In this document: positions 2,591 through 40,905 of the stretch, one piece after another
Numbering within the stretch: the first letter of the stretch is position 1
How the letters are laid out: the number at the start of each line of letters is the position of its first letter
Origin: a virus
Taxonomy: Duplodnaviria > Caudoviricetes
DNA: 63,708 nt
Strand: one strand, 5' to 3'
IMG/VR virus record: IMGVR_UViG_3300028394_000003
Span: 1-63,708 of that record
Notes under the pieces: model-generated
The model's database searches: none
What the model was told of the DNA's origin: nothing
The model's input: the letters and a program-made list of their open reading frames with translations, nothing else
Program-made: the position numbers and the translations under genes

Positions 2591-3673
2591 TTAGGCCGTG
2601 TAGGTGCCAGAGGCTGTGTATTTAAGAATAGTATTAGAACCGCTGGTTGTGATTGTTGGGCTGCCTGTGTATGTGCCTGTGTAGCGTGTTGTTGGGATAG
2701 ATAAAATAACAACGCCAGAACCACCAGCGCCGCCGGGATTACTAACGCCACCGCCAGATCGCTCTGAACCACCACCGCCTCCGCCAGTATTTGCTGTACC
2801 AGCAGTACCTATACCACCAGATCCAGCTCCACCACCACCTGATCCGCCTGCTCCCGGTGTTCCTCCAACTGCACAAACTGTAACTGCTGAACCACCACCA
2901 CCACCAGCGTAAGTTACTGCGGAACCTGTAATGCTTGATGAAGAACCTGCGCCGCCTGCTCCGCCAACTAATCCAGACCCAGCTCCACCAGCAGCACCAG
3001 ATCCACCACCACCGCCTTGTCCGCCGTTTGGAAGTTGTCCTGCGCCGCCCGCATTTCCTTGACCTGATGTTCCACTAGCCCCAGCGCTTGCCAATCCACC
3101 GCCACCGCCGCCTGAGCCACCAGATGTTGGGACTTGTCCTGAAACATATCCACCACCACCTCCACCACCGACTGCAGTAGTTAATCCTGTAATAGAAGAG
3201 CTTGATCCACTGCCACCCGTATAACCACCATTTCCAGCGCCCGCAGTGCCTCCTCCTCCAACAGTGACTGTATAGACTGATGATTGCAAAAGATTAGTAG
3301 TTCCTGATACAAAACCGCCAGCTCCACCACCTCCACCGACAAACGCCCCACTACCGCCACCGCCGCCAGCAACAATTAAATACGATACTGTGTAGCCTGC
3401 GCTTTTAACCGTTGTCCATGCGCCAGCAATATAACCCTCAATACCTAACACAGAACCATCTGTGTTGTATCGAATCATGCCGTTAATTGGGCTTGCTGGA
3501 CGTTGTGCTGTCGTGCCAACTGGCAGAGTAACGGCGCCAGTTGAATTAAGCGTTACGTTCTGATCTGTACCAATTGTAAGAGCAGCCGCACCACTAGTTT
3601 GTAGTTGCAATGCGCCACTGTTGTCAGCAGTCTCTACAATGCCTGTTGAATTTGCGTTGATAGTTGTCGTCAT
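2591..3673 (-). CDS. Glycine-rich tail fibre / receptor-binding protein
   Basis: PVGTTAQRP..NGMIRYNT shoulder plus GGGGG-rich domain ending GGSGVVIL. Confidence 0.8.
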   Translation of the reverse strand: MTTTINANSTGIVETADNSGALQLQTSGAAALTIGTDQNVTLNSTGAVTLPVGTTAQRPASPINGMIRYNTDGSVLGIEGYIAGAWTTVKSAGYTVSYLIVAGGGGGSGAFVGGGGGAGGFVSGTTNLLQSSVYTVTVGGGGTAGAGNGGYTGGSGSSSSITGLTTAVGGGGGGGYVSGQVPTSGGSGGGGGGLASAGASGTSGQGNAGGAGQLPNGGQGGGGGSGAAGGAGSGLVGGAGGAGSSSSITGSAVTYAGGGGGSAVTVCAVGGTPGAGGSGGGGAGSGGIGTAGTANTGGGGGGSERSGGGVSNPGGAGGSGVVILSIPTTRYTGTYTGSPTITTSGSNTILKYTASGTYTA

Positions 3674-23374: not shown

Positions 23375-23535
23375 AAAGTGCAAGGGTTGCAAGGCTTAAT
23401 CAGTCCCTCCAGTACTTAATAATATTTTTTTAATTTTTTTTTTAAAAGAATAAAAAGGGGTTACAACCCTAGCAACCCAAGGACCTAGTTTGCAAGTGCT
23501 TGATTATATTGAATCTAGATGATAATGATTCTCAA
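23375..23535. repeat. Origin-like element copy 1 (inverted GGGTTGC repeats around an A/T core, IHF site, Fur-like box)
   Basis: Diverged direct repeat of 29238-29399. Confidence 0.7.
23520..23534. promoter_or_regulatory. Fur-like box
   Basis: TGATAAT-G-ATTCTCA, one mismatch to 7-1-7 TGATAAT-N-ATTATCA. Confidence 0.6.
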
Positions 23536-23919
23536 GTAATTTTATAAAAAAATTTTACAATATGAAATTATGTGATATTTGTAAAAAAATATAAAAACTC
23601 AGGCTTTGTGGGGCCCCCCGCCCCCTCCTCCCCGATGGGACCCTAAACGGGTGTATGGCTTTATAAAAAGACCCCTTGCCATTATGCCTCCTAGCGTATG
23701 TGAGTGCTCACTTACAGGCCGAGCTGGCGGATCGACCAGTATGCTGCACTGCACCACCCCCAGTGAGCGCTCACTTACATGCAGGCACACCAGGCGGCTT
23801 GGCACTCAGGCACATCGACTGCTGATAATGGGGACAGAGTGGAGAGCGGGCCAGTGTGTTGCGCTGCAGTAATGGGGACAGAGTCGACGTGCTGCACTGC
23901 GTCATTGCCAGTTAGGCAG

Positions 23920-23936
23920 TGCACCATGTTGGTGCA
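23920..23936. promoter_or_regulatory. NtrC-like binding site
   Basis: TGCACCA-TGT-TGGTGCA, a perfect 7-3-7 palindrome. Confidence 0.6.
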
Positions 23937-24118
23937 TCGGCATAGGGGCGCGTAGACGGGCCGCCATGACGCGATCGCCAGTTAGGCTACTAACGTATTA
24001 CCGCGCCGAGATCTCTAGCAATCCAGTAAACAGGAGGGTTGCGGGGAGAGGTTACGCGCAGGCGAGGCGATATGGGGCGGAGTACTTCCTAGTCAGTATC
24101 TACCAGGACGGCTGCCCT

Positions 24119-24153
24119 CCCACAATCCCCCACCGCGCCCCACTAATCACCAC
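24119..24153 (-). promoter_or_regulatory. MraZ-like direct repeats
   Basis: GTGGT-N5-GTGGG-N5-GTGGG-N5-GTGGG at a 10-bp period. Confidence 0.5.
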
Positions 24154-24220
24154 CAAACCCAGTAGCCAATTGGGCCCAAAAGATTGTCAGATTAGAGGGT
24201 AGTTTTTTTGTCGAAAGTTC

Positions 24221-24249
24221 TTGAGTATTTGCATACACTGGAATAAAGT
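24221..24249 (+). promoter_or_regulatory. Probable host sigma70 early promoter
   Basis: TTGAGT-N17-TAAAGT with a T-tract upstream; heads the plus-strand early region. Confidence 0.55.
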
Positions 24250-24372
24250 CTCTATATGGGATGTGCAGTGGCTAATCCACTCAGTAGTAGAAGGACTCAA
24301 ACCCAACCGAGATAAATAAGGGGGAGCCGGCAGAACCGGTGCTGTTATCCAACACAGCGTATGACGGACACA

Positions 24373-24541
24373 GTAGCGCAGTAGGCTACTGGATCACCAA
24401 GTAGGCAAGCAGGAAACGGGGTAAGCCCCGAAACGGGTGTCACGGTAGTATGCGAGTCAGCATCCAAACAAGCAAACCGAATAGTCTTGGCCAAGTGTGT
24501 GGACTAGCATATCCACTTGATCCAGTAGCCTACTGCGCTAC
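24373..24541 (+). ncRNA. Structured RNA closed by a perfect 24-bp inverted repeat
   Basis: 24373-24396 is the exact reverse complement of 24518-24541; internal hairpins; no credible ORF. Confidence 0.65.
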
Positions 24542-24616
24542 AAGATAGTAATGCTCATAGCTACTTGTTACCAGGTAGCTAGAGGCAGTACTAACCAACC
24601 ACCAAGGAGATACACC

Positions 24617-24847
24617 ATGACCACATTAACATTTAAAAACCTCAACACAATCCTCGAAGTATTGCAGGCCCAGCGTCATGCTCAGGCCAAGACAACACAC
24701 TTCCACGATGGTGTAGTTAAAGAGGCGTTAAGCGGTAATAAAGAGAAGCTGGACTTCTTAGTAGAGCAACAAAGCAAAAACTACGTGCGCAAAAGCGAGC
24801 TGGACTATGCGTATTTTGCAGTTAAGGAATTAGTAGACGCATTCTAA
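24617..24847 (+). CDS. Early hypothetical protein
   Basis: aaggagatacaccATG; start revised to MTTLTF. Confidence 0.75.
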   Translation: MTTLTFKNLNTILEVLQAQRHAQAKTTHFHDGVVKEALSGNKEKLDFLVEQQSKNYVRKSELDYAYFAVKELVDAF

Positions 24848-24850
24848 ACA

Positions 24851-24905
24851 GGTCGAAACCGCATGGACGTGCGGTCTGAGCGTTAGGCGCTCACTGATGA
24901 TGACC
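24851..24905 (+). ncRNA. Hammerhead ribozyme type II, copy 1 (predicted cut after C24876)
   Basis: GGUC-GAAA-CCGCAU/GUGCGG-UC-UGAGCG/CGCUCA-CUGAUGA-U-GACC. Confidence 0.9.
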
Positions 24906-24924
24906 AACCAATAGGAGATACACC

Positions 24925-25041
24925 ATGATCTATTTCAATTCTAAACAAGAAGTATCAGAGTTCTTGACCAACTTGCGTTCCGCAGGTATTCGTTGCGCTG
25001 TTACTCAGTGCAATGGACGTTACGTATTACAGATACGTTAA
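24925..25041 (+). CDS. Small early protein (38 aa, not in ORF track)
   Basis: aggagatacaccATG; MIYFNSKQEVSEFLTNLRSAGIRCAVTQCNGRYVLQIR. Confidence 0.7.
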   Translation: MIYFNSKQEVSEFLTNLRSAGIRCAVTQCNGRYVLQIR

Positions 25042-25049
25042 GTAAGACA

Positions 25050-25102
25050 GGTCGAAACAGCCTCACGGCTGTCTGCACGTTAAGCGTGTACTGATGATGA
25101 CC
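25050..25102 (+). ncRNA. Hammerhead ribozyme type II, copy 2 (predicted cut after C25073)
   Basis: GGUC-GAAA-CAGCC/GGCUG-UC-UGCACG/CGUGUA-CUGAUGA-U-GACC. Confidence 0.9.
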
Positions 25103-25120
25103 AACCAAAGGAGAACCACC

Positions 25121-25342
25121 ATGATCACGACAGGCAAAACAGAATACGACGTAGGGCTGAGCTGGAAAGCATACGAGCATCTCGGTAGCAAAGGCAAGCT
25201 GGCCCTTAAGCGGGAACATAACTTTAAGGAGCGCACGTTCAAAACAAAAAATGAGGCCGAGCAGTTTGCAGCGGCTGAACGCGAACGAACTGGGCTGGAG
25301 CTGCGCGTAGGTGAGTGCACTCCAATCTACGGCATTTTGTAG
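25121..25342 (+). CDS. Small early protein
   Basis: aggagaaccaccATG; MITTGKTEY... Confidence 0.75.
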   Translation: MITTGKTEYDVGLSWKAYEHLGSKGKLALKREHNFKERTFKTKNEAEQFAAAERERTGLELRVGECTPIYGIL

Positions 25343-25346
25343 TAAA

Positions 25347-25399
25347 GGTCGAAACAGCCGCCAGGCTGTCTACACGTTAAGCGTGTACTGATGATGACC
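25347..25399 (+). ncRNA. Hammerhead ribozyme type II, copy 3 (predicted cut after C25370)
   Basis: GGUC-GAAA-CAGCC/GGCUG-UC-UACACG/CGUGUA-CUGAUGA-U-GACC. Confidence 0.9.
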
Positions 25400-25418
25400 A
25401 ACCAATAGGAGAACCACC

Positions 25419-25556
25419 ATGATTACAATACAAGAGCTATGCACCCTGCTACCCACGCCCGTGTGGCGTGTGCAGGGTAGAGTAAGCTGGCAGGAATATG
25501 TAGCAATGAGCAAATGGCGTGCTAATGAGGGCGCACAATGGAAAGCAACATTTTAA
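25419..25556 (+). CDS. Small early protein (45 aa, not in ORF track)
   Basis: aggagaaccaccATG; MITIQELCTLLPTPVWRVQGRVSWQEY...; stop abuts the next ribozyme. Confidence 0.7.
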   Translation: MITIQELCTLLPTPVWRVQGRVSWQEYVAMSKWRANEGAQWKATF

Positions 25557-25609
25557 GGTCGAAACAGCCTCACGGCTGTCTCCACGTAAGGCGTGGACTG
25601 ATGATGACC
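25557..25609 (+). ncRNA. Hammerhead ribozyme type II, copy 4 (predicted cut after C25580)
   Basis: GGUC-GAAA-CAGCC/GGCUG-UC-UCCACG/CGUGGA-CUGAUGA-U-GACC. Confidence 0.9.
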
Positions 25610-25628
25610 AACCAATAGGAGATACACC

Positions 25629-25883
25629 ATGATCAAACTTAAATCAATTCGCGTGCCCCAATTTAAAAAGGGCCAGAGCGAGTGGCACGTAGTCAACCGC
25701 AGTGATTACCAGTTGGTAGGCTTTATTTGCTTCTACGGCTCTGACAACGACTACCATTACGTGGCCTATGTAAAGAACGACGAAGAGTCAAGCGACCACC
25801 TGTTAGGCCGGTCACTGAGCCAATCAGGGGCATTATCCTTGATCCGCAATTATTACAAGGCTAGGGAGGCTGTATGTTTATAG
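25629..25883 (+). CDS. Small early protein
   Basis: aggagatacaccATG. Confidence 0.75.
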   Translation: MIKLKSIRVPQFKKGQSEWHVVNRSDYQLVGFICFYGSDNDYHYVAYVKNDEESSDHLLGRSLSQSGALSLIRNYYKAREAVCL

Positions 25884-26011
25884 TGTTTTATAAAACCCGG
25901 GGCGAGGAATACAGCGCCTCGTTTGATGACATTAAACGGGCCCGGGCGTTTGCCCGGTTTGTAGGCGGCAAGCTGGAGAGCCGTCTGTCATGCATTTTTA
26001 ATAAACTATAA
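25874..26011 (+). CDS. Small early protein (45 aa, not in ORF track)
   Basis: RBS ggagg; MFIVFYKTRGEEY... Confidence 0.55.
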   Translation: MFIVFYKTRGEEYSASFDDIKRARAFARFVGGKLESRLSCIFNKL

Positions 26012-40310: not shown

Positions 40311-40377
40311 TTATTTAAGGGTAGACGAACAGGCCCCTACTGAAGTCCTGTTCTACAGTTAAAAAGGTAATATCATC

Positions 40378-40905
40378 ATGGCAGCTAAATCAGTAAGAAC
40401 CAAACTAGTAACAAACAAAGTTCGTTTGTCTTTCGTTAACGTATTTGAACCAGCCGAGACATTAAACGGCGTACTTAAATATTCGACAATGGTATTAATT
40501 CCAAAGTCTGATAAAGAAGGTGTTGCCCGTTTTAATAAGGCATTTGAAGATACTAAGCAAGCCAATGCAGCATTCTTTGGTGGCTCAGTACCTAAGCTAT
40601 TAAAAGGTGGCTTACGTGATGGTGATGCAGAAAAAGAAGATCCAGAATTCGTGGGCCATTATTTCTTTAATGCTTACGCAAATATTGATCGTAAACCTGG
40701 CGTTGTAGACGCTGAAGTAAACCCAATCCTTGATAAGAATGAAGTGTACAGTGGTTGTTATGGTCGCGTGTCAATTGACTTGTTTCCGTATGACACAGCA
40801 GGCGCCCGTGGTATTGCTGTTGGCTTAAACAACGTTCAGAAGTTAGAAGACGGAGAACGTTTAGGTGGAGCTAGTACATCAGCAGCAACAGATTTTGCAG
40901 CATAA
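40378..40905 (+). CDS. Single-stranded DNA-binding protein (DUF2815 / gp2.5-like)
   Basis: VRLSF..VFEP, KYS..LIPK, LRDGD, YSGCYGR, GLNNVQK..DGE.L. Confidence 0.88.
   Translation: MAAKSVRTKLVTNKVRLSFVNVFEPAETLNGVLKYSTMVLIPKSDKEGVARFNKAFEDTKQANAAFFGGSVPKLLKGGLRDGDAEKEDPEFVGHYFFNAYANIDRKPGVVDAEVNPILDKNEVYSGCYGRVSIDLFPYDTAGARGIAVGLNNVQKLEDGERLGGASTSAATDFAA

What the first reader, a model, noticed from the sequence alone, without database searches (positions are those of the whole stretch)
24851..25631. Array of four hammerhead ribozyme-RBS cassettes that would cut the early transcript into single-gene mRNAs
Seen: four units GGTC-GAAA-stemIII-TC-stemI-CTGATGA-T-GACC at 24851, 25050, 25347 and 25557. 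Each starts 0-8 nt after a stop codon and is followed by AACCAA(T/A)AGGAGA..CACC-ATG-AT. Stem I covaries (UGAGCG/CGCUCA, UGCACG/CGUGUA, UACACG/CGUGUA, UCCACG/CGUGGA) and stem III differs in copy 1, while the core is invariant. Known: this is the type II hammerhead arrangement, with a GUC cleavage triplet and one extra U after CUGAUGA; hammerheads do occur in phages. Inference: self-cleavage releases monocistronic units of 197, 297 and 210 nt with a 5'-OH hairpin and a 2',3'-cyclic phosphate. This would be a protein-free analogue of RNase III processing of T7 early RNA. Such ends are RtcB-compatible, so circular mRNAs are possible. The repeats could also act as recombination points for swapping early gene cassettes.
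Basis: partly seen in the sequence, partly recalled or inferred. Interest (0 to 1): 0.9.

Follow-up and report, generated by a model that had tools for sequence, protein, structure and literature searches.

The report
Four hammerhead ribozymes between phage genes
Four genuine self-cutting hammerhead RNA motifs sit between the first small genes of a freshwater phage and probably chop one long message into single-gene messages, an arrangement first described for prophages in 2011.

Summary
Four about 57-nt units lie at 24850-24906, 25049-25103, 25346-25400 and 25556-25610 (+ strand). Each has a full hammerhead core, type II topology, a GUC cleavage triplet and one extra U after CUGAUGA. Each fills the gap between a stop codon and the next gene's Shine-Dalgarno site.

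Rfam's Hammerhead_II model scores 3 of the 4 below its cut-off (30-32 bits against 37), and unit 1 is not listed. The comparative evidence is strong. The same subclass occurs in at least 119 viral and at least 120 bacterial or archaeal contigs. All three stems covary, the base at position 17 is never G, and 168 of 226 units sit between a stop codon and a Shine-Dalgarno/start pair.

About 11% of the unbiased set carries the extra U. A close relative has a canonical hammerhead without the U at the same gene junction. Cleavage itself is not shown, and no RNA data exist.

Clustered hammerheads that flank single genes in prophages are in print (Perreault 2011, PMC3088659). This scan has already reported larger arrays (5 to about 30 units) on other DNA. 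This is a new member of a known kind.

The modest extra finding is that related lake phages carry the ribozyme-bounded genes in another order or with other content, with joints inside the units.

The parts
24617..24847 (+). g1, 76-aa ORFan, first gene of the rightward operon, upstream of unit 1
   Evidence: An ORF with AAGGAGA 6 nt before the ATG at 24617. No PHROGs family.
24850..24906 (+). Hammerhead unit 1 (type II). A, then GGUC, GAAA, the stem III hairpin (ACCGCA/UGCGGU), GUC with cleavage after 24876, the stem I hairpin (UGAGCG/CGCUCA), CUGAUGA, an extra U, GACC, then A.
   Evidence: 82.0 bits with R1; minimum-free-energy fold is a three-way junction. Not listed by Rfam up to E 10.
24906..24924 (+). 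Unpaired A/C-rich tail with the Shine-Dalgarno site AGGAGA (24913-24918) for g2
24925..25041 (+). g2, 38-aa ORFan
25049..25103 (+). Hammerhead unit 2; cleavage after 25073; stem I has one G-U pair
   Evidence: RF02276 32.0 bits, E 4e-4; 80.3 bits
25121..25342 (+). g3, 73-aa ORFan, conserved in related phages at 81-97% amino-acid identity
25346..25400 (+). Hammerhead unit 3; cleavage after 25370
   Evidence: 30.4 bits; 81.6 bits
25419..25556 (+). g4, 45-aa ORFan. The last A of its stop codon is the invariant A of unit 4.
25556..25610 (+). Hammerhead unit 4; cleavage after 25580
   Evidence: 30.8 bits; 81.2 bits
25629..25883 (+). g5, 84-aa ORFan, last gene preceded by a ribozyme. g6 (25874-26011) overlaps its end and no ribozyme follows.

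Best explanation
The four units are genuine cis-acting type II hammerhead ribozymes. They belong to a widespread phage and prophage subclass with a 4-bp open stem II, a 6-bp stem I closed by a U-N-A-N-G loop, and an invariant A 5' of stem II. This lineage carries one extra U between A9 and G10.1.

The units lie in the intercistronic gaps of the first five small ORFan genes of the rightward (presumably early) operon of a complete 63.7-kb freshwater phage. The following mechanism is inferred. Each unit folds as it is transcribed and cleaves after C17. [quoted passage not shown]

The upstream mRNA ends in the stem III hairpin with a 2',3'-cyclic phosphate. The downstream mRNA starts with a 5'-OH on the stem I hairpin, followed by an unpaired tail with the Shine-Dalgarno site. 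One transcript would thus become single-gene mRNAs with hairpin-protected ends and a context-independent ribosome-binding site.

Shown here: sequence, fold, family membership by covariation, and genomic context. Inferred: cleavage in vivo, product stability and effects on translation.
For: - **Core and topology.** They are complete in 4 of 4 units.
- **Rfam.** RF02276 matches 3 of 4 units at E 4e-4 to 1.1e-3 in a 1.8-kb search.
- **Covariation in near relatives.** An alignment of 47 distinct units, 45 of them with the extra U, has 98.3% of 746 cells paired. 11 of 16 pairs show double changes. 0 of 500 shuffles reach this, and slid registers give 23-45% paired.
- **Unbiased pattern search.** A pattern that left stem II and the insert free hit at least 119 viral and at least 120 genome contigs, both capped. 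Stem II covaries there, for example GGUC/GACC, GGCC/GGCC, GGAC/GUCC, GAUC/GAUC, GAGC/GCUC and AGGC/GCCU.
- **The insert.** Of 247 unique units, 206 have no insert, 27 have a U insert, 3 have another insert and 11 are unclear.
- **Stem I.** All 5 free pairs are paired in 231 of 235 units, with 117 different 5-mers.
- **Position 17.** It is C in 283, A in 11, U in 2 and G in 0 of 296 units, as the NUH rule demands. C is favoured by the way the loci were fetched.
- **Link to the curated family.** Three units of the same subclass in L040 pass Rfam's gathering score.
- **Context.** 168 of 226 units have both an ORF ending within 30 nt upstream and a Shine-Dalgarno site plus start within 60 nt downstream. 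On the opposite strand the figure is 7.
- **Orthologous site.** Next to the g3 homologue, L269 has a canonical hammerhead without the U and with a GAUC/GAUC stem II. L275 and L276 have GUA triplets.
[quoted passage not shown] One case is CChMVd(+) A10, with a moderate loss of rate (PMC1636495). Another is Penelope-like element hammerheads (PMC4209133).
- **Activity of relatives.** Type II hammerheads near phage genes cleave in vivo in Desulfovibrio vulgaris (PMC8782182).
- **Co-transcription.** No terminator-like site lies on the + strand between 24600 and 26047.
Against: - No unit reaches Rfam's gathering score of 37 bits, and unit 1 is not listed even at E 10.
- Sub-threshold RF02276 matches at E <= 1 also occur in 6 of 14 control genomes, so the Rfam scores alone are weak evidence.
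- The extra U lies in the catalytic core. Its effect in this scaffold is untested. I could not read the 2001 paper that measured such insertions.
- The loop I/3'-tail pseudoknot reported for most type II hammerheads is absent. Four or more contiguous pairs occur in 50 of 235 units, against 41.7 in controls. The tertiary contact needed for fast cleavage at low Mg2+ is therefore unidentified.
- Nothing here bears on RNA ends or expression.
- In L270-L274 the same gene lacks ribozymes and is followed by a promoter-like site, so ribozymes are not required for its expression.
Confidence: 0.8

Rival explanations
1. The units are hammerhead-derived but catalytically weak or conditional because of the extra U. 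They would act mainly as paired hairpins that stabilise or insulate the cistrons, or would cleave only under particular conditions (regulated processing).
For: The insertion lies between A9 and G10.1. The CChMVd A10 insertion lowers the rate moderately (PMC1636495). No pseudoknot or other known tertiary contact was found. Perreault et al. suggest that slower phage variants may be regulated.
Against: All catalytic-core letters stay invariant in the U-insert lineage while the stems covary. That is not expected if only the hairpins mattered. U inserts recur with at least five different stem II sequences. The orthologous site carries canonical copies.
Confidence: 0.12
2. The main selected role is at the DNA level, and this does not exclude cleavage. 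The conserved ribozyme-plus-RBS units would serve as homology patches at which early ORFan genes are gained, lost and reordered as cassettes.
For: - L021 shares g3, g5 and g6 at 91-97% amino-acid identity but has other genes in place of g1, g2 and g4. It has no ribozyme before g5, only the tail and ribosome-binding site.
- Contigs of two lake runs (X4 and X6, two studies, possibly one campaign) join 24849 to 25049 and 25372 back to 24879. That gives the order g1-g3-g2, with both joints inside units and 100-255 letters on the shorter side.
- Among pairs of units from different viral contigs, 39 of 59 share only one flank. At positions shifted by 260 nt the figure is 45 of 96.
Against: Conserved linkers between unrelated genes will mark mosaic boundaries whether or not recombination there is selected. 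The pairs are not independent, and the shifted controls may hit neighbouring units. The joints come from contigs laid at 85% likeness, so they describe relatives and not necessarily strains.
Confidence: 0.3
3. The units are an ordinary intergenic repeat, such as a terminator, an RNase III site or a REP-like element, that resembles a hammerhead by chance.
For: Rfam's curated threshold is not reached.
Against: The pattern has 4 matches against 0 expected. All 11 core letters, the A15.1-U16.1 pair and the NUH site are conserved across hundreds of units whose three stems covary. The stems are 4-7 bp, too short for RNase III, and no T-run follows them.
Confidence: 0.02

Closest known systems
Type II hammerhead ribozymes (Rfam RF02276; Perreault et al. 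2011, PMC3088659: passages and section 8 read)
   Same: Same permuted topology, with stems I and III closed and stem II open. Same core, a short stem II, a conserved A at the 5' end, and occurrence in phage and prophage DNA.
   Different: One extra U lies between A9 and G10.1. No loop I/3'-tail pseudoknot is present. Scores are 30-32 bits, below the 37-bit cut-off.
Clustered hammerheads flanking single genes or short gene blocks in prophages (Perreault 2011, Fig. 3 legend and text; Agrobacterium tumefaciens triple arrangement cleaves when expressed in E. coli)
   Same: Several co-oriented ribozymes bracket individual small genes of changing identity. The proposed role is processing of long phage transcripts into single-gene mRNAs.
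   Different: Here the array is in a complete, apparently lytic-type phage genome at the head of the rightward operon, with four uniform units each fused to a conserved ribosome-binding tail.
Three type II hammerheads of Desulfovibrio vulgaris, shown active in vivo and in vitro (cyPhyRNA-seq; PMC8782182, abstract and passages read)
   Same: Type II units lie near hypothetical and phage-like genes, two of them about 250 nt apart. Their cleavage products carry 2',3'-cyclic phosphate and 5'-OH ends.
   Different: I did not compare the sequences. Those are prophage-region copies in a cultured bacterium.
[quoted passage not shown]
   Same: The insertion is at the same position, in ribozymes regarded as functional.
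   Different: Those are type III or type I ribozymes of a viroid and of eukaryotic retroelements. The effect of a U in this type II scaffold is unmeasured. I recall that De la Pena and Flores 2001 tested a U there, but I could not read that paper.
RNase III processing of T7 early mRNA (recalled, no call)
   Same: The outcome is the same: an early polycistronic RNA is cut between genes and leaves hairpin ends.
   Different: That system depends on a protein and uses long imperfect duplexes. Here the stems are 4-7 bp and the cut would be made by the RNA itself.
PeSL mobile regulatory cassettes of T4-type phages (PMC2839356, PMC4122927: search listing and start of abstracts only)
   Same: A repeated short regulatory motif flanks ORFan genes at the sites of insertion, deletion and replacement between close relatives.
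   Different: PeSLs are promoter-terminator motifs that act on transcription. Here the motif is a ribozyme plus a ribosome-binding site. In L270-L274 the g3 homologue is followed by a hairpin plus a TTGACA/TATAAT promoter-like site instead.

Membership tests
Hammerhead ribozyme (structural definition) | Core boxes CUGANGA (C3-A9) and GAAA (G12-A14 plus A15.1) | tested here: met
   Both boxes are present and identical in 4 of 4 units. They are invariant columns in the 47-unit alignment, but the search pattern had fixed them.
Hammerhead ribozyme (structural definition) | A15.1-U16.1 pair and a cleavage triplet NUH (position 17 not G) | tested here: met
   GUC in 4 of 4 units. Family-wide, position 17 is C in 283, A in 11, U in 2 and G in 0 of 296 units.
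Hammerhead ribozyme (structural definition) | Three helices around the core, supported by compensatory changes | tested here: met
   Stems I and III: 10 of 12 pairs show double changes. Stem I is fully paired in 231 of 235 units with 117 distinct 5-mers. Stem II: 19 distinct 4-mers pair with their partners.
Hammerhead ribozyme (structural definition) | G10.1-C11.1 pair next to the core | tested here: met
   The C before GAAA pairs with the G of GACC in 4 of 4 units.
Hammerhead ribozyme (consensus, not obligatory) | A9 directly followed by G10.1 with no inserted nucleotide | tested here: not met
   One U is inserted in 4 of 4 units. This is a consensus trait, not a defining one. Natural hammerheads with a nucleotide there are in print. 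27 of 247 units of this subclass carry the U.
Type II hammerhead (Rfam RF02276) | Stems I and III closed by loops, stem II open | tested here: met
Type II hammerhead (Rfam RF02276) | Score at or above the curated gathering cut-off (37 bits) | tested here: not met
   Units 2, 4 and 3 score 32.0, 30.8 and 30.4 bits; unit 1 is not listed. Three units of the same subclass in L040 pass at 37.3-39.3 bits.
Type II hammerhead (majority form of Perreault 2011) | Pseudoknot of four or more pairs between loop I and the 3' tail | tested here: not met
   No such pairing exists in the window's units. Family-wide, 50 of 235 units reach 4 or more pairs, against 41.7 with tails dealt to other units. The paper says a majority, not all, have it.
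Hammerhead ribozyme | Site-specific self-cleavage that gives 2',3'-cyclic phosphate and 5'-OH ends | not testable with these tools
   It needs transcription and cleavage assays or end mapping.
Clustered phage/prophage hammerheads (Perreault 2011) | Several co-oriented units flanking single genes in phage DNA | tested here: met
   Four units bracket g2, g3 and g4 and separate g1 and g5. The record is a complete virus genome with a large terminase, family A DNA polymerase and a primase.
RNase III processing sites (T7 type) | Long duplex of about 20 bp or more as substrate | tested here: not met
   The stems are 4, 6-7 and 6-7 bp.
PeSL-type mobile regulatory cassettes | The motif holds an early promoter and a terminator-like stem-loop | tested here: not met
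   No promoter-like site on the + strand lies within 24600-25900. The resemblance is in behaviour only.

The most novel reading that the evidence does not exclude
The ribozyme-plus-RBS unit may be a portable gene boundary. At the RNA level it would make any inserted ORF independent of its neighbours. At the DNA level its conserved letters would give the homology by which early ORFan genes are reordered, swapped and lost as ribozyme-bounded cassettes, a ribozyme counterpart of the PeSL cassettes of T4-type phages.

All units of an array tend to keep the same stem II while stem I diverges. Among 77 within-locus pairs, 62 share stem II and 27 share stem I; 23% of between-locus pairs share stem II. 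The 3' half left on one mRNA could therefore pair with the 5' half of any other. This would allow trans-assembled hammerheads and ligation into circles or shuffled RNAs.
Probability: 0.2. Interest if true: 0.6.

Novelty: new member of a known kind. Interest (0 to 1): 0.3.

Why it matters
The biological role of bacterial and phage hammerheads is still called largely elusive in a 2019 review (PMC6765202). This array is small and regular and lies in a complete phage genome. Close relatives carry three alternatives at the same gene junction: a canonical hammerhead, a U-insert hammerhead, or no ribozyme, with a promoter-like site after the gene.

That natural comparison could be used to test what ribozyme processing adds to early gene expression. 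It could also test whether the extra U tunes the rate. The array does not change what is known about the kind of system.

Tried and rejected
- **Rfam at gathering thresholds on the whole window.** No hammerhead was found, only the DUF2815 RNA.
- **blastn of 24400-26000 against 50,697 phage records.** No match.
- **Search for sequencing runs.** No RNA holder is listed, so transcript ends could not be examined. Read laying used DNA contigs only. Bins without cover in X4-X6 say nothing.
- **PHROGs on seven small ORFs.** Two weak hits to families of unknown function (E about 1e-3) and nothing else.
- **Loop I/tail pseudoknot.** Not supported. Mutual information between loop letters and tail letters was weak (z 3-6) and looks phylogenetic; that script stopped on a division by zero at the invariant column.
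- **Mosaic-boundary statistic.** Only a modest excess over imperfect controls, so I treat it as weak.
- **Shared stem II within arrays.** It cannot separate selection from recent duplication.
- **Rfam E-value scan of L021 7200-8600.** It listed the type III match but neither of the two type II units there. Rfam detection of this subclass is therefore erratic.
- **Rfam E-value scan of the leader 23400-24650.** Only chance-level miRNA matches.
- **Paper look-ups.** De la Pena and Flores 2001 is not held. Supplements of Perreault 2011, which hold alignments and figures S1-S8, were not seen; they may already contain this subclass and the U insert.

Full report
**What is there**

The window is a complete virus record of 63,708 bases with direct terminal repeats. 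It encodes a T4-type large terminase, a family A DNA polymerase, a D5-type primase, DUF2800, an Enc34-type ssDNA-binding protein, a ribonucleotide reductase and a sigma-like protein.

Genes run leftward up to about 23.0 kb and rightward from about 24.6 kb. The rightward block opens with five small ORFs: g1 24617-24847, g2 24925-25041, g3 25121-25342, g4 25419-25556 and g5 25629-25883. None has a known family.

Each reads GGUC, GAAA, a 6-bp hairpin ending in GUC, a 6-bp hairpin, CUGAUGA, one U, then GACC. The pattern occurs 4 times against 0 expected.

**Is it a hammerhead?**

Rfam with curated thresholds reports none. With E-value reporting, the type II model RF02276 matches units 2, 4 and 3 at 32.0, 30.8 and 30.4 bits (cut-off 37; E 4e-4 to 1.1e-3 for 1.8 kb). 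Unit 1 is not listed. Sub-threshold matches at E <= 1 also turn up in 6 of 14 control genomes, so I did not rest the case on Rfam.

Each unit alone folds into the expected three-way junction.

An exact pattern modelled on the window found 29 other IMG/VR contigs, many with 2-3 units. The 47 distinct units, 45 of them with the extra U, align with 98.3% of cells paired. 11 of 16 pairs show changes on both sides. No shuffle out of 500 reaches this, and shifted registers give 23-45% paired.

That pattern had fixed stem II. I therefore scanned with a second pattern that fixes only the core, the GUC and the U-N-A-N-G loop, and leaves stem II and whatever follows CUGAUGA free.

In these unbiased sets:
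- Stem II is a covarying 4-bp helix (GGUC/GACC, GGCC/GGCC, GGAC/GUCC, GAUC/GAUC, GAGC/GCUC, AGGC/GCCU and others).
- Of 247 unique units, 206 have no insert, 27 have a U insert like the window, 3 have another single insert and 11 are unclear.
- Stem I is fully paired in 231 of 235 units with 117 different sequences.
- The base 5' of stem II is A in 235 of 235, and the base 3' of it is A in 186 of 235.
- With position 17 left free, 296 units have C in 283, A in 11, U in 2 and G in none. This is what the hammerhead NUH rule demands, although C is favoured by the way the loci were fetched.
- Three units of the subclass in L040 pass Rfam's own threshold, which ties the subclass to the curated family.

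I conclude that the four units are real members of the type II hammerhead family.

**The extra U**

It lies between A9 and G10.1. An extra nucleotide at that place is in print for the CChMVd(+) hammerhead, where A10 causes a moderate loss of rate (PMC1636495, discussion). It is also a conserved trait of hammerheads in Penelope-like elements (PMC4209133, discussion). I could not read the 2001 paper that measured such insertions.

Here the U-insert lineage keeps every core letter while its stems covary. The insert recurs with several different stem II sequences. At the orthologous junction beside the g3 homologue, L269 carries a canonical hammerhead without the U and with a GAUC/GAUC stem II, while L275 and L276 carry GUA triplets. 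This argues that the variant is functional. Its rate is unknown.

The loop I/3'-tail pseudoknot described for most type II hammerheads is not present in this subclass. The tertiary contact is therefore open. The invariant A, the A after stem II and the U-N-A-N-G loop are candidates; this is inference.

**Context and mechanism**

Family-wide, 205 of 226 units follow an ORF of 30 or more codons that ends within 30 nt. 183 are followed within 60 nt by a Shine-Dalgarno site plus the start of an ORF. 168 have both, against 7 on the opposite strand. The stop codon mostly ends -1 to 3 nt from stem II, and starts peak 17-26 nt after it.

The window fits this pattern. In unit 4 the invariant A is the last base of the stop codon. 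No terminator-like or promoter-like site lies on the + strand between the units.

In the type II topology both new ends carry closed hairpins, and only the 4-bp stem II holds the products together. Cleavage should therefore release single-gene mRNAs. Each would have a 5'-OH hairpin, an unpaired ribosome-binding tail, and a 3' hairpin ending in a cyclic phosphate. That such ends stabilise mRNA and insulate translation follows from general knowledge of RNase E and 3' exonucleases. It is inferred, not shown.

This is the reading Perreault et al. gave in 2011 for clustered hammerheads that flank single genes in prophages. It is repeated in reviews. Type II units near phage genes cleave in vivo in Desulfovibrio vulgaris.

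**Relatives and cassette exchange**

L021 (also fetched as L267 and L268) is a close relative. Its g3, g5 and g6 homologues are 91-97% identical in protein. In place of g1, g2 and g4 it has a 117-aa and a 61-aa ORF. Its g5 homologue keeps the tail and ribosome-binding site but has no ribozyme.

Contigs from two lake runs of two studies (possibly one campaign) join 24849 to 25049 and 25372 back to 24879. That is the order g1-g3-g2, with both joints inside ribozyme units and 100-255 letters on the shorter side. These were laid at 85% likeness, so they describe relatives rather than proven strains.

Five further contigs (L270-L274) carry the g3 homologue with no ribozymes. It is followed by a hairpin and a TTGACA/TATAAT promoter-like site. 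A cruder statistic over viral contigs gives 39 of 59 homologous pairs sharing only one flank at units, against 45 of 96 at shifted positions; this is weak.

Whether that is a selected role cannot be told. Units within one array share stem II more often than stem I. This is compatible with trans-pairing of halves but equally with recent duplication.

**Novelty**

The kind is known. Arrays of 8 (L040), 5 (L006) and 4 (L035) units are in the fetched loci. This scan has already reported arrays of 5, 7, 9, 12 and about 30 units on other phage DNA (unchecked by me). This is a small, clean new member.

Its particular points are the uniform U insert, the natural series of alternatives at one gene junction, and the evidence for reordering of ribozyme-bounded genes.

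Noticed in passing
window 24373-24541; L021 7460-7518: The window's leader holds a perfect 24-bp duplex closing about 120 nt (fold z -6.9). At the same place, just before its first gene, the close relative L021 has a type III hammerhead-like motif (RF00008, 33.7 bits against a cut-off of 48.5, E 4.4e-5). A contig of run X5 skips 24366-24542. The two elements may be alternative ways to trim the leader, for example RNase III against a ribozyme.
   Followed up: partly
window 40318-40380 (+): DUF2815 RNA (RF03084, 76.9 bits, E 9e-14) ends in the start codon of the Enc34-type ssDNA-binding protein gene 40378-40905.
   Followed up: no
L270-L274, about 3222-3320: The g3 homologue (82% identity) is followed by a hairpin that overlaps a TTGACA, about 16 nt of spacer and TATAAT. 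Relatives have a hammerhead at this position.
   Followed up: no
all units of the subclass (loci L033 onward): The nucleotide immediately 5' of stem II is A in 235 of 235 unbiased units, although no search pattern required it. Loop I is always U-N-A-N-G by the pattern. Together these suggest a tertiary contact different from the published pseudoknot.
   Followed up: partly
L180, L200: Cultured actinobacteria (Phycicoccus jejuensis NRRL B-24460 and Streptomyces iakyrus NRRL ISP-5482) each hold three units about 1 kb apart. The stem II, start of stem III and stem I that I tabulated are the same in all six.
   Followed up: no
window 23600-24150: A G+C-rich stretch without credible ORFs lies between the divergent gene blocks, with repeated motifs. 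Rfam gives only chance-level matches.
   Followed up: no
window 25094-25123: In unit 2 the two AUGs inside CUGAUGAUGA are in frame with g3, because the tail is 1 nt shorter. They are not in frame in the other three units, so this is probably coincidence.
   Followed up: no
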